DNA of 64,000 nt. Origin: Eledone cirrhosa. Taxonomy: Eukaryota. The DNA is taken from assembly GCA_964016885.1 (NCBI GenBank), contig OZ024740.1:384152001-384216000 (forward strand), given 5' to 3'. Of this stretch, positions 12,649-25,589 are shown one piece after another (position 1 is the stretch's first letter; the number at the start of each line of letters is the position of its first letter). The notes below the pieces were generated by a model. The model searched no databases, was not told the origin of the DNA, and was given only the letters and a program-made list of their open reading frames with translations. Both the position numbers and the translations under genes were made by a program.

Positions 12649-12781
12649 TTATTTCTGAAGAAGACGATGGGATTGATCTATAGTATCCAAACTGATAATA
12701 CGGAATTACATAACTAATATTGATTGCTCACTATATCGATTCCTCATTATAAATCGATAGTCTGAAACGATCTTGAAATGA
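12649..12781 (+). ncRNA. Hammerhead-like motif with ~100-nt domain II in a solo PLE pLTR between microsatellites
   Basis: TTATTT-CTGAAGA-AGAC...(ATGGGATTGATCTATAGT/ACTATATCGATTCCTCAT hairpin)...GTCT-GAAA-CGATC-TTG-AAATGA. The cleavage triplet looks mutated. Confidence 0.65.
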
Positions 12782-14691
12782 TGAACTGGTTAACCTCTAA
12801 ACACTTACTTCTGGTTTTATTGTTCACACGCACATACATACATATATATATATATATATATATATATATATATATATATATATATGTGTGTGTGTGTGTG
12901 TGTGTGTGTGTATGCGTGTATGTAGGTAGGTATGTGTGTGTGTGCAGAGAAGGGTTTGACTAGTGACAGACAATCAGACAGATAACATTGCTGATAGATA
13001 GTTCGATGCATATTAGCAAAATATTGGCAATTTATGATCGAAAGGTTATTGTACAAGCAATCTACGCTCATATGTGATTTAGATTTTACAGATTCCTGAA
13101 CACCTGTTACTGTGGTTGTCAATTAAAAATGAATAAATAATGTTTTATAATAAGCATATTTAGAGACCTGAATATAACCGGAAAATCATTTGCAAAAAGA
13201 ATGCAATGTCAGATATGGTTAACTTTATTAGTAATGTTCAGAAAGAGAAAACGTGTGATATAAATAACAGTCGTAGCATTAAAATGAATGTCTACGAAAT
13301 AAAAAAAAGCGCTTCGATTGTATTTTATATAATTCCAAACAATGTTCCAGTATGAATCATGCTAAATGGAGAAGAGTGTTTCGCCTGTTAAAACATAAAA
13401 AAAAGGCTTCCACTTTCAGTGGTCCACACCTTACGCTTTTCAATTAAAGAAATAATTGTAGTTCTAGATACAGTTAGACGAATAGAGAAAAAGTGAATGC
13501 TTTTTTTATTATATTTATGAATGAACAGATCTGAATTCGGGGTTAAAGACTAGAACCATGATCTCATAAATATACAATATATTTATATTGCTTTTCATTA
13601 CTGATATGATGAAGAAAATACTGAATTGAAAAGACACATTACTTTTATAGTTTCAGAATATTCACACAAACGATGTATACATATGTAGATAACGATTTAA
13701 ACGTAGATAAGAAATCAATTCGTCTGTTATTCTATCAAATAGAACGAAATTTGAAATTAGAACGTAAAGAGGCACAGTTAGAACATGTTAGTCTGGAGCT
13801 TTAGTGATTACTACATATCTGTGTCTCGTTACAGACAAATACTACAAAAGTAATGTAATGAAATTAACAACTAAAACCTAAATATGGATTTTTGCAATCA
13901 GAATATAGAAGCAACCGATCACTTTATTTGTGGCACCCGAGTCATTGCTAATACAGTATATCCATAACTATAACATGACTCAGTAGGTAGCTATGTTCAC
14001 TAGGCCGTATTCTAATTCGTTAACATGAACATTCAGATGAAGCGATGCAAGCATGTACCAATGCTGGTTTTTGTTAATGATCTGATTACAAACATTAGGG
14101 ACTAGTCTCTGCACAATGATTGATAAAATGCTCAAATTGATGACATACCAATTCATAGACACGCGTTACTGGGTTACGAAAGTAGATGATTAACATAACA
14201 CATATGTTACACAATAAACTAATGAAACAACTATGGCACACCAGAAAATTATACAACTAAATAATTGCCAAAGAGTATAATTCTATACTCCCAAACTTCA
14301 ACTCTGTACACCCCTCTGAAACATATAGGAATATGAGTAAAGATTTCATGAAACCGACGAAAACAGAACTATATTTATAAAACGATTATGAATTTACGAT
14401 ACATCATCAATCATTACAATCTCTATTGAAAGTTTATTGCAAAAATGTTAACAGCTGAAATAATTTGTGTCTATATGAACCTGTACAATATAATTCAAAT
14501 TACATCATATCTAATAATCTCCGGAATATGTCAGTCATCAAATGGTAACAGAACACTGAAACGAGCTAAGCTCGAAAGGGCTTGCTCAACATGATAAAAT
14601 ATTAGTCACATTTTCATGAGAATGCCTATATCTAAACTGCACTGTCTAATGTACTATAATGTACACGGTGATTGAACAGGTAGATGAGATT

Positions 14692-14815
14692 ATTATTACT
14701 GGTATGATTAACTTTGCCTTTCATCCTTACGGGGTCGATAAAATAAAGTACCAGTAATGTACTGGTTAATTGCTGGCCTTGTGCCAATAGTAGAAATAAT
14801 TATTACTGGTATGAT
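14692..14815 (+). mobile_element. 5'-truncated SINE with perfect 17-bp TSD
   Basis: ATTATTACTGGTATGAT at 14692-14708 and 14799-14815 flanks the SINE core and tail. Confidence 0.9.
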
Positions 14816-14958
14816 GTTGAATTCAAGTGTAATCAACCGTCGTTATACACACACACGCCACCCCCCGGACACACTCACACACATACATATATGTAAATAT
14901 ATATATATATATCACATAAGACACGGAGATTCAGTAATGCGACGAATTAGAATTTATT

Positions 14959-15055
14959 AGACATATTACAATCGTTTCTCTGGCGACCAGCTCGAGGTAC
15001 GATCGATGCGAAGATCGAACCTGACTATGAAATCGCAATTTCTTCAGATACGTCT
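14959..15055 (-). ncRNA. Hammerhead-like motif with 62-nt domain II
   Basis: AGACGUAU-CUGAAGA-(62 nt)-GAAA-C(GAUU)G-UA-AUAUGUCU; 8-bp stem I. The base of stem II pairs imperfectly. Confidence 0.6.
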
Positions 15056-15190
15056 TTATCCCTCGAAGCAGAATTTCCAAAAAAAATTCTGCTTCGAGGG
15101 ATAAAGACTTATCTGAAGAAATTGCGATTTCAGAGTCAGGTTCGATCCTCGCATCGATCGTACCTCGAGCTGGTCGCCAGAGAAACGATT
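14970..15190. repeat. ~107-bp-arm palindrome (inverted PLE pLTR)
   Basis: 14970-15076 is the reverse complement of 15084-15190 (about 3 mismatches); 7-nt loop. Confidence 0.9.
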
Positions 15191-15194
15191 CTGT

Positions 15195-23234: not shown

Positions 23235-23617
23235 ATAATAATATATGTTGTAAGAAACACAGTAAGTCGTGTGTCTAATATTACGAGGTTTGGGTTGAAG
23301 AACCACATTTGTTTGAAATATCTAACCATGAAACAGACAGAATGATAAAATAAAATTAAATTAAACTATACAAACCGCCTCAATAACAATTATATCTCTC
23401 GGACAGATTAGGGATTAACACACTCAGGGCGAAACAGATTAATCCCTAATCTGTCCGAGAGATATAATTGTTATTGAGGCGGTTTGTATAGTATAATTTT
23501 ATTTTATTTTAACATTCTGTCTGCTTCATGGTTAAATATTTCAAACAAATGTGTTTCTTCAACCCTCGTAATATTAGACACACGACTTACTGTGTTTCTT
23601 ACTACATATATTATTAT
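23235..23617. repeat. ~185-bp-arm fold-back of a PLE pLTR with an HHR 3' half at the turn
   Basis: Arms 23235-23418 and 23439-23617. The centre reads GGGC-GAAA-CAGATTA(ATCCC)TAATCTG-TC. Confidence 0.85.
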
Positions 23618-23631
23618 TATATATATATATA

Positions 23632-24904
23632 CAAGGGTTGGACACAATAATGGAAACATGTAGCATCATAGCATCATAATTTTGAAATATCTATAAAACC
23701 GTCAAAAGCTTGTTTATTTTTATGTTTTATTTATTTATAATTAGTGTTACTTAATATGTTTTGTTAAAATTGCTGTTTCTCTTCAGATATCATCAGAAAA
23801 AGGTAATTAAAATTCATTAAAATGACAGATCTATCGGACTTTCATAGATGTCAAATTGTTGGTGCTCGTATGGCATGCGTTAGCGTAACGAAAACAGCCG
23901 AAATGTTTGGTGTATCAAGAAGTACTGTCTCGAAAGTAATGGCAGCCTTTGAGAAAGAAGGAAAAACCTCCTCGTCGAAACAAAACTCCGGAAGAAAACC
24001 AAAACTTTCAGATAGGGACCGTCGGACTCTTACGCGAATTTTTTGGAAAGGATCCCAAAAGTACAGCTCCCAAAATTACTGCAGAGCTTAATGACCACCT
24101 CAAGAACCCAGTTACCACAAAAACGGTTCACCGGGAGCTACACAAAGCCGGATTTCATGGGAGGGCTGCAATCAGAAAACCACTACTTTCAAAAGCAAAT
24201 GTTGCAACGCGTTTAGAATGGAGTAAAAACCTACAGAATTGGTCCCTAGAGCAGTGGAATAATGTTATTTCATCGGACGAGTCATCCTTTACCTTATTTC
24301 CGACCACCGAGCGAGTATACGTGTGGAGACCGCCAAAAGAAGCATTTGACCTAGACTGCCTTCTTTCATCTGTTAAACATGGAGGAGCATCTGTGATGAT
24401 CTGGGGGGCTATATCTTGGTAATCCGCCGGCCTAATGGTTTCCCTTCATGGCATAATTAATAATCAAGACTATTTAAGCATTTTATCTGATTAAATTCAT
24501 CCTATCGTTCCGGAACTGTTTCCGGAGCGAAACGCAATCTTTCGGGATGATAATGCACCAATTCACGCAGCTAAATTGTTACTGAATGGCACGAGGAACA
24601 TTCTAGTGAAGTTGAACATCTTATCTGGCCATCACAATCCCCTAATCTCAATATTATTGAACATTTATGGTGCATTCTAGAAAAACAAGTAAGGAGTCGA
24701 TATCCTCCACCATCATCACTACAAGAACTGGAGACTGTTTTAGATGAAGAATGGACAAAATTTCCTTTGGAAACAATTCCAACTTGTACGACTCCATATG
24801 TCATGGAATGCAAGCTCTAATTACTGCCAAAGGCGGTCCTGGCCCATATTAAAATAAATTCGTTTGTAATTTTAAGGTGTTTCCATTATTTACTCCAACA
24901 CCTG
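23632..24904 (+). mobile_element. Full-length Tc1-like DD34E transposon, transposase inactivated
   Basis: TA-flanked TIRs CAAGGGTTGGACACAATAATGGAAACA / TGTTTCCATTATTTACTCCAACACCTG. Transposase spans 23822-~24852 with HTH, GRKPKL, SDES, DDNAP and SPNLNIIEHLW, broken by frameshifts and stops. Confidence 0.95.
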
Positions 24905-25114
24905 TATATATATATATTGTCATACTTGTGGAAGGTCATATTGTTGTAATAATATTGCCAGAAATACTAAAAGAACACACTCACTGTTTGGTTGGTTTTC
25001 GCTTCTGTATCTTTTATATCCACAGTTAATTCATTCGGTCCTCAATGTTTACCATTGACTGACCAACGGTCAAAGATACAGATATAATATAGATATAAAC
25101 ACATGTATATAGTC

Positions 25115-25157
25115 TAACAAAGTTCTTTCGTTGCACATCTGAACATCATCAGTGGTA
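25115..25157 (-). ncRNA. Minimal hammerhead candidate in a pLTR fragment (24920-25190)
   Basis: UACCA-CUGAUGA-UGUUCA(GAUG)UGCAAC-GAAA-GAAC-UU-UGUUA. Confidence 0.5.
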
Positions 25158-25504
25158 CTATTATGTTCCTCCTGTTGTATTGTATATCTACGGCTTTTTT
25201 TATAAAATTGCAAGTTTGAAGAATTATTAGATAAAATATACATACAGTCCTTCCTCTCCCTAGTCCATAGAAATCAACCACATAAATAATCATTTAATCG
25301 AGGCTATGAGTTTAAAATGTAACTATGAAGAAATAATAGACAAATGATACAGACTATTTTCTGCGAGGAACAACCAGATAAAATTTATCTTATTATTCCT
25401 TTTAACCCGTAGAATTGACTAGACAAATAATCAATTAAACGCAGTTAGGTCTAAAATATAAGTTAGATGAAAAAATGCATATAAACTTTACCAAAATTCT
25501 TCTA

Positions 25505-25589
25505 GTCCCGACTGCCGGCAGTTTCGCTCTATTTTGCGGATATATCCGATCCTGGATTTATCCACGAGGCTTGGACCTTATCAAGAGAC
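25505..25589 (-). ncRNA. Hammerhead with U3-A8 core (UUGAUAA), 52-nt domain II and palindromic stem III
   Basis: GUCUC-UUGAUAA-GGUC...GUGGAUA..UAUCCGC...GAGC-GAAA-CUGC(CG)GCAG-UC-GGGAC. Confidence 0.7.

What the first reader, a model, noticed from the sequence alone, without database searches (positions are those of the whole stretch)
12649..25589. Family of PLE hammerheads with very large domain II inserts (52-102 nt)
Seen: four sequence-unrelated pLTRs keep a well-paired stem I around CUGANGA-like...GAAA-stemIII-UH cores but have long, partly self-paired domain II: 12649-12781 (102 nt), 14959-15055 (62 nt), 15787-15918 (95 nt; second copy ~17794-17940) and 25505-25589 (52 nt). Established: PLE pLTRs usually carry minimal type I HHRs with short stem II, like the one at 47107. 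Inference: this lineage uses an expanded architecture that standard motif searches with short stem II limits would miss. The insert may be a protein-binding or regulatory module.
Basis: partly seen in the sequence, partly recalled or inferred. Interest (0 to 1): 0.75.

Follow-up and report, generated by a model that had tools for sequence, protein, structure and literature searches.

The report
Long-armed hammerheads of Penelope-like retrotransposons
The ends of several jumping-gene families in this animal genome carry hammerhead motifs (predicted self-cutting RNAs) whose side arm is a 50-116-base rod instead of the usual 12-26 bases; paired mutations keep the rod and the catalytic core, and the rod likely serves as a docking site for the element's own protein on a ribozyme predicted to be mostly folded off.

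Summary
Confirmed. All four motifs are copies of repeat families whose majority sequences are complete type I hammerheads with arms of 53-116 nt; three of the window copies are decayed. One exact pattern alone finds 11,531 copies with 76-135-nt arms (control 0). C and B are Hydra-clade Penelope-like elements; A is a relative of C, so the four are not all unrelated; D is a 707-nt ORF-less partial tandem of another build. The arm is a rod kept by compensatory changes, a sister family with a 107-nt arm has fixed the core swap C3-G8 to U3-A8, 14 of 25 families share a pyrimidine mismatch at stem II position 4, and the arm tip is better conserved than its shaft. Short copies start at stem I, so templates were mostly uncut; an off fold is predicted. 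No cleavage or RNA data. Published Hydra arms are 12-26 nt; a plant element reaches about 54. This scan has noted long-armed hammerheads before, elsewhere in this genome and in others. New variant of a known kind.

The parts
12649..12781 (+). Family A hammerhead: core 12655-12661, 102-nt arm 12662-12763, GAAA 12764-12767, stem III, position 17 mutated to G (12775); old decayed copy that begins at stem I
14904..15080 (-). Family B element end (Hydra clade); hammerhead 14959-15055, core 15047-15041, 62-nt arm 15040-14979, intact core
15093..15190 (+). Second, inverted family B piece; core 15113-15119 and arm, cut off in stem III
15731..16047 (-). Inverted 5'-truncated family C copy; hammerhead 15787-15918, core 15909-15903 (U4G), 95-nt arm 15902-15808; hairpin that competes for the 3' strand of stem I at about 15795-15740
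16325..18158 (+). Family C Hydra-clade element, 5'-truncated: GIY-YIG endonuclease end (frame 16548-17057), 3' UTR, hammerhead 17794-17940 (core 17803-17809 U4G, 101-nt arm, broken stem III), tail; a further inverted piece at 16016-16339
25201..25852 (-). Family D, part of a 707-nt ORF-less unit; hammerhead 25505-25589 with U3-A8 core 25584-25578, 52-nt arm 25577-25526, palindromic stem III, C17
47111..47138 (+). Minimal hammerhead with 13-nt domain II (comparison; weak stem I)
410..480 (-). Fifth expanded hammerhead in the window, 36-nt arm, Hydra family, 287 nt before a fragment of the ORF start

Best explanation
These are type I hammerhead motifs in the ends of Hydra-clade Penelope-like retrotransposons (B, C; likely A) and of a likely non-autonomous derivative (D), whose stem II is a long rod kept by selection and likely acts as a docking site for the element's RT-endonuclease protein on a ribozyme predicted to be mostly folded off. 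Steps: (1, shown) cores and rods are conserved between subfamilies with compensatory changes; (2, inferred) the element RNA starts about 7 nt before the core, so the hammerhead is its leader; (3, predicted) alone, the RNA pairs the 5' strand of stem I with the GAAA segment and the 3' strand with a hairpin at the element's 3' end; (4, inferred) reverse transcription mostly uses this uncut form; (5, inferred) protein binding and pairing of two palindromic stems III allow occasional cutting; (6, inferred) a pyrimidine mismatch at stem II position 4 stands where loop II normally sits, which would free the far part of the arm to grow.
For: Family C subfamilies: 97.3% of 672 cells paired, 5 of 42 pairs with changes on both sides, 0 of 500 shuffles as high for three of five measures. 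Arm folding z-scores of majority sequences: C -4.5 to -7.8, A -2.3 to -7.1, B -2.5, D -4.4. A sister family (1,434 candidates, 107-nt arm) reads U3...A8 in 11 of 11 copies, a swap described as natural (PMC4209133). Position-4 pyrimidine mismatch in 14 of 25 families, paired in the other 11. Tip identity to C exceeds shaft identity: 25/29 vs 30/57, 23/29 vs 31/60 (p 0.002, 0.010), weaker towards A (p 0.005, 0.10, 0.19). Of 30 consecutive C copies picked by a motif behind the cut site, 10 start at -14..+6 from C3, 0 inside the arm, 5 at +104..+131, 15 are long. Truncated A copies often show G at -8, as cap copying would give (8 of 21, p 0.027). With downstream context the C3-G12 pair has probability 0.79-0.89 and stem I 0.00 from -7; the competing hairpin is present in A and C. 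Stem III palindrome dimer -10 kcal/mol. A Poseidon hammerhead cuts only with protein, and uncut RNA is its main template (PMC11167929, parts 1-2 read).
Against: No cleavage, binding or RNA evidence. Family A covariation on 24 old copies is weak: 79.6% paired, shuffles as high in 35, 80, 3, 186 and 15 of 500. Cells count sequences, not events, and related rows can beat the shuffles. The tip was delimited after seeing the alignment. B, D and other families have unrelated tips, so no single docking motif is shared. Hydra families with 11-36-nt arms transpose too. In-silico shortening of the arm left the off fold in place. G at -8 is not significant in C (4 of 21, p 0.10). Several starts near the core are head-to-head junctions that microhomology could explain. 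No ORF was reached for A or D.
Confidence: 0.5

Rival explanations
1. The arm is a tolerated expansion: these ribozymes need no loop I-loop II contact, so stem II can grow, and selection only keeps it paired so that it does not misfold the core.
For: Arm lengths form a ladder of 11-116 nt across families; arms of B, C, D cannot be aligned; a 10-nt duplication at the tip of C is tolerated; short-armed Hydra families thrive; shortening does not change the predicted fold.
Against: Arm length stays at 93-107 nt in A, basal C and two sister families while the shaft sequence turned over; unpaired tip letters are kept; pairing is kept more than 30 bp from the core.
Confidence: 0.3
2. The arm matters as DNA or pre-mRNA: it holds internal promoter elements or a splice donor just behind the start site, and splicing would remove half of the ribozyme.
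For: Copies start at an initiator-like stretch in stem I; Penelope has an internal promoter and an intron 46 bp behind its start (PMC2377424 passages); C and its sisters keep a GT donor-like hexamer in the arm.
Against: The donor-like letters are paired in the rod and are not kept across A subfamilies or in B; compensatory changes point to RNA structure; the 3' acceptor candidate is weak and absent from one full-length copy.
Confidence: 0.12
3. The motif no longer cuts; the shape is kept only as a structural leader for reverse transcription.
For: Templates are mostly uncut; the off fold dominates in prediction; mismatch at 10.1-11.1 in B and C.
Against: Core letters are invariant while arms diverge; the fixed U3-A8 swap; a 10.1-11.1 mismatch occurs in active natural hammerheads (PMC3088659 passage); 3 of 30 copies start at or just behind the cut site.
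Confidence: 0.08

Closest known systems
Hydra-clade PLE hammerheads (Craig et al. 2021, PMC8557442, section 11 and File S2)
   Same: Type I, in the pLTR, 3-4-bp palindromic stem III, A or U at position 17, often a mismatch at 10.1-11.1, (TA)n insertion; protein motifs RWR, DKT, CxC linker, CxxC and CxH around the endonuclease E and N.
   Different: Published domain II is 12-26 nt by my count of the table; here 62-116 nt with a position-4 pyrimidine mismatch. Family C is longer than the usual under 3 kb (3' UTR 1-3.8 kb).
Selaginella PLE-X1 hammerheads (same File S2, flagged as deviating)
   Same: PLE hammerheads with a large domain II (about 54 and 48 nt by my count), matching D in size.
   Different: Plant, endonuclease-less elements; mostly loop rather than rod; half the length of A and C.
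Minimal hammerheads of metazoan PLEs (Cervera and de la Pena 2014, PMC4209133)
   Same: pLTR location, dimer-type palindromic stem III, U3-A8 variant, helix II larger than canonical.
   Different: Their helix II is 6-8 bp; here it reaches 35-45 bp with internal loops.
Poseidon PAc hammerhead (Frangieh et al. 2024, PMC11167929)
   Same: Hammerhead near the RNA start, uncut RNA as template, reverse transcription from a stem-loop behind the ribozyme.
   Different: Other clade; ORF starts inside stem II there, about 350 nt behind the cut site in family C; protein assistance is shown there and only inferred here.
Animal non-LTR retrozymes (PMC7229834; bioRxiv 10.64898/2026.07.22.740005)
   Same: Family D: ORF-less tandem unit with a type I hammerhead.
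   Different: 707-nt unit against about 300-390 nt; mostly partial tandems with inverted pieces; long arm; circular RNA not tested.

Membership tests
Type I hammerhead ribozyme | Core CUGANGA / GAAA / UH | tested here: met
   Family majority sequences A, B, C; D with U3-A8. Window copies A and C carry single core changes.
Type I hammerhead ribozyme | Stems I, II, III close the core | tested here: met
   Stem I 5-12 bp, stem II, palindromic stem III; covariation clear in C, weak in A.
Type I hammerhead ribozyme | Loop II-stem I tertiary contact of canonical motifs | tested here: inconclusive
   No terminal loop near the core; a conserved position-4 mismatch may stand in for it.
Type I hammerhead ribozyme | Self-cleavage after position 17 | not testable with these tools
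   No assay possible; genomic starts near the cut site are few.
Hydra-clade PLE (family C) | RWK-like motif, DKT, C-terminal GIY-YIG without CCHH, CxC linker, CxxC and CxH | tested here: met
   RWR, DKT, linker and endonuclease read against the definition.
Hydra-clade PLE (family C) | pLTRs, inverted truncated copy, tail, (TA)n targets | tested here: met
   Long-armed motif before the ORF in 6 and behind it in 16 of 20 loci; two 3' ends at (TA)n.
Hydra-clade PLE (family C) | Generally under 3 kb | tested here: not met
   817-aa ORF plus 1-3.8 kb to the hammerhead; a tendency in the paper, not a strict criterion.
Hydra-clade PLE (family B) | Linked Hydra-type RT and endonuclease | tested here: met
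   RT and endonuclease pieces 1.7-2.5 kb before the motif in 3 of 5 extended loci (L373-L375), same ORF region in L372; N-terminal motifs not reached.
Hydra-clade PLE (family A) | Linked ORF | tested here: inconclusive
   No ORF found upstream in 23 loci examined; membership rests on homology of the RNA motif to C.
Non-LTR retrozyme (family D) | ORF-less tandem unit with type I hammerhead | tested here: met
   707-nt period, partial tandems, no shared ORF and no RT or endonuclease hit.
Non-LTR retrozyme (family D) | Circular RNA expressed | not testable with these tools
   No RNA holder was available.

The most novel reading that the evidence does not exclude
A natural protein-gated hammerhead: the arm tip binds the element's own RT-endonuclease and flips the leader RNA between a fold that offers the reverse-transcription hairpin and a fold that cuts, so that one RNA switch decides between copying and destruction; about a hundred thousand such motifs per genome would have escaped short-stem searches.
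Probability: 0.2. Interest if true: 0.8.

Novelty: new variant of a known kind. Interest (0 to 1): 0.52.

Why it matters
The role of hammerheads in Penelope-like elements is open. Young, near-intact family C copies with arms of 99-116 nt, sisters with 31-62 nt and a U3-A8 variant give a natural series for testing whether the arm binds protein and whether cutting is gated. It also shows that short-stem descriptors can miss a large share of genomic hammerheads (22 of 63 strict hits here have arms of 45 nt or more), so elements reported to lack them, such as Naiads with 'half cores' at 35-50 nt, deserve a second search.

Tried and rejected
Rfam: no hammerhead match. Pfam did not recognise the window endonuclease frame at E up to 0.1; clade was read from motifs. 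No RNA holder listed. Four contig runs of unrecorded kind were laid on the family C leader: one GT..AG joint in one low-depth contig, not counted. Apparent 5' ends at -7 in 4 of 30 copies proved to be SINE insertions with target duplications and were moved to the long class. The idea that the 5' copy is off and the 3' copy on failed for C once downstream sequence was added. RNAalifold on 30 raw A copies gave no structure. Three references were out of register (A by one base; L079, L092) and were not used. A link between the 49-nt family and a Neptune-like ORF was not confirmed. The RT/endonuclease tree (32 rows, partial sequences, midpoint root, support 64-73 at key nodes) places arms of 31 nt or more on one side but cannot count origins. 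Luense et al. 2017 was not held and is known to me only through a review passage; the descriptor figure of PMC4209133 was not seen, and either could hold longer arms. Six literature searches showed no report of 60-116-nt arms in PLE hammerheads.
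Full report
Observation. The four motifs are present as described. I call them A (12649-12781, +), B (14959-15055, -), C (15787-15918, -; second copy 17794-17940, +) and D (25505-25589, -). The window lies in a 3.0-Gb genome. Each motif belongs to a repeat family: 120, 1,516, 1,831 and 1,153 candidates, 40 scored and 30 loci fetched per family. Majority sequences are complete type I hammerheads. A, B and C have an 8-12-bp stem I, a standard core, a six-letter palindromic stem III segment and A at position 17. 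D has a U3-A8 core, a G10.1-C11.1 stem, a longer palindromic stem III and C17. The window copies of A (G17) and C (U4G) are decayed.

More than chance. A strict scan of 664 kb (the window, 200 kb beside it, 40 stretches at round coordinates) gave 63 hits; controls gave 1, 1 and 1-4. Arm sizes: 23 at 8-25 nt, 18 at 26-44, 15 at 45-75, 7 at 76-200 (tandem copies counted singly). Scaled up this would be about 100,000 long-armed motifs, a rough inference. Exact genome-wide patterns for the C/A lineage gave 11,531 copies at 76-135 nt, 52 at 45-75 nt and 139 of the A type, all controls 0. Rfam showed no hammerhead among 142 weak matches.

What carries them. [quoted passage not shown] In 20 loci with long frames the long-armed motif lay about 470-510 nt before the start codon in 6 and 1-3.8 kb behind the stop in 16. 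Family B links to Hydra-type RT and endonuclease pieces about 40-46% and 30-38% identical to C. Family A reached no ORF but shares stem I, core, stem III and part of the arm tip with C, with one subfamily bridging the two. Family D is a 707-nt ORF-less unit in partial tandems with inverted pieces. A tree of 32 partial proteins puts families with arms of 31, 36, 62, 82 and 101-116 nt on one side and 11-26 nt on the other, with modest support.

The arm is under selection. It folds as a rod with internal loops; z-scores of majority sequences run from -2.3 to -7.8 (one single-copy sister -1.6), while decayed window copies fold less well. On 16 distinct C copies chosen across subfamilies, 97.3% of cells pair and 5 of 42 pairs change on both sides; 0 of 500 shuffles reach three measures, 28 and 39 reach the other two. 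On 24 old A copies the signal is weak. A sister family with a 107-nt arm reads U3...A8 in 11 of 11 copies, so the 3-8 pair of the core is kept in the long-armed lineage. In 14 of 25 families, with arms from 26 to 107 nt, position 4 of stem II is a pyrimidine-pyrimidine mismatch between pairs of varying identity; the other 11 pair there (D appears twice among 26 rows). The tip (short helix, 4x3 internal loop, helix) is more alike between C and two sisters than the shaft (p 0.002, 0.010), less clearly so towards A; the tip was delimited after the fact.

How the RNA is used. Thirty consecutive C copies were picked by a motif behind the cut site. After moving four SINE-interrupted copies to the long class, 15 extend far upstream, 10 start between -14 and +6 from C3, none in the arm, and 5 at +104 to +131 with the cut at about +120 (p 2e-6 for none in the arm among 12 independent short insertions). 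A second sample gave 10 of 30 within 3-12 nt by the script and an eleventh by eye. Truncated A copies show G at -8 in 8 of 21 (p 0.027), C in 4 of 21 (p 0.10). I infer a capped start in stem I and mostly uncut templates; junction microhomology explains part of the pile-up. Folding with 60 nt of downstream context gives an off fold in C: the 5' strand of stem I pairs with the GAAA segment, and the 3' strand pairs with a near copy of the 5' strand about 45 nt on. The shorter 3' end of the element lies just behind that hairpin. Shortening the arm in silico did not release the fold. The stem III palindrome favours dimers, as known for PLE hammerheads (PMC4209133 parts 1-2 of 4; PMC6765202 passages).

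Mechanism. Best reading (0.5): a selected rod that likely docks the element's protein on a ribozyme that is mostly off and cuts with protein or dimer help, by analogy with the Poseidon element (PMC11167929 parts 1-2 of 4). Rivals: tolerated rod (0.3), promoter or splice function (0.12), non-cutting relic (0.08). That the motifs are real, selected, long-armed hammerhead folds I put at about 0.9.

Comparison with print. File S2 of PMC8557442 (supplement parts 1-2 of 59) lists Hydra hammerheads with domain II of 12-26 nt by my count and two Selaginella elements at about 54 and 48 nt. Its methods passage gives a core-only spacer of 7-17 nt and notes 'half cores' at 35-50 nt in eight Naiads. PMC3088659, PMC7229834, PMC6155905, PMC10085705 and PMC2377424 were seen as passages, the 2026 preprint as part 1 of 5 plus passages (its supplement was not seen). 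Six searches showed no 60-116-nt arm in a PLE hammerhead; Luense et al. 2017 and one descriptor figure were not seen. Very large inserts in hammerhead loops are known from the Clec2 ribozymes (recalled) and stem II is the usual site for engineered aptamers (recalled), so a long arm need not block cutting. Earlier notes of this scan describe long-armed hammerheads at other places in this genome and in other genomes; they are leads, not support.

Verdict. Observation confirmed, interpretation partly supported. New variant of a known kind; interest 0.52.

Noticed in passing
L378, L384, L387, L391, L250, L141:8243: A tRNA-like SINE with an ATT-type tail inserts at the stem I/core junction of family C with target duplication; 8 of 190 SINE tails in loci enriched for C; also seen inside D (L093).
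   Followed up: partly
Families A, B, C, D and others, 0-60 nt behind the cut site: A hairpin that takes the 3' strand of stem I forms just before the short 3' end of many families; candidate reverse-transcription start signal.
   Followed up: partly
L195:1540-7301; L229:636-2274; L204:2111-3248: Tandem arrays of 466-nt units (14-nt arm) and 592-nt units (57-nt arm, U3-A8) with an inverted block; retrozyme-like.
   Followed up: no
L141-L160: Family C has many near-intact 810-834-codon frames, and its 3' UTR varies from 1 to 3.8 kb with internal duplications, including a degenerate partial copy of the hammerhead start.
   Followed up: partly
window 15903-15909 and 17803-17809: Both arms of the window's C insertion share the U4G change, as if copied from one template.
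   Followed up: no
window 22358-23075 (-): Endonuclease end of another Hydra family, about 40% identical to C; no hammerhead found behind it.
   Followed up: partly
window 23940-24422 (+): Tc1/mariner transposase fragment (PF01498, E 1e-15).
   Followed up: no
L168:924, L207:241, L050:3002, L049:1276, L058:930, L213:8684: Further single-copy examples with arms of 82, 92, 95, 75, 49 and 60 nt; the 95-nt arm is predicted to branch.
   Followed up: no
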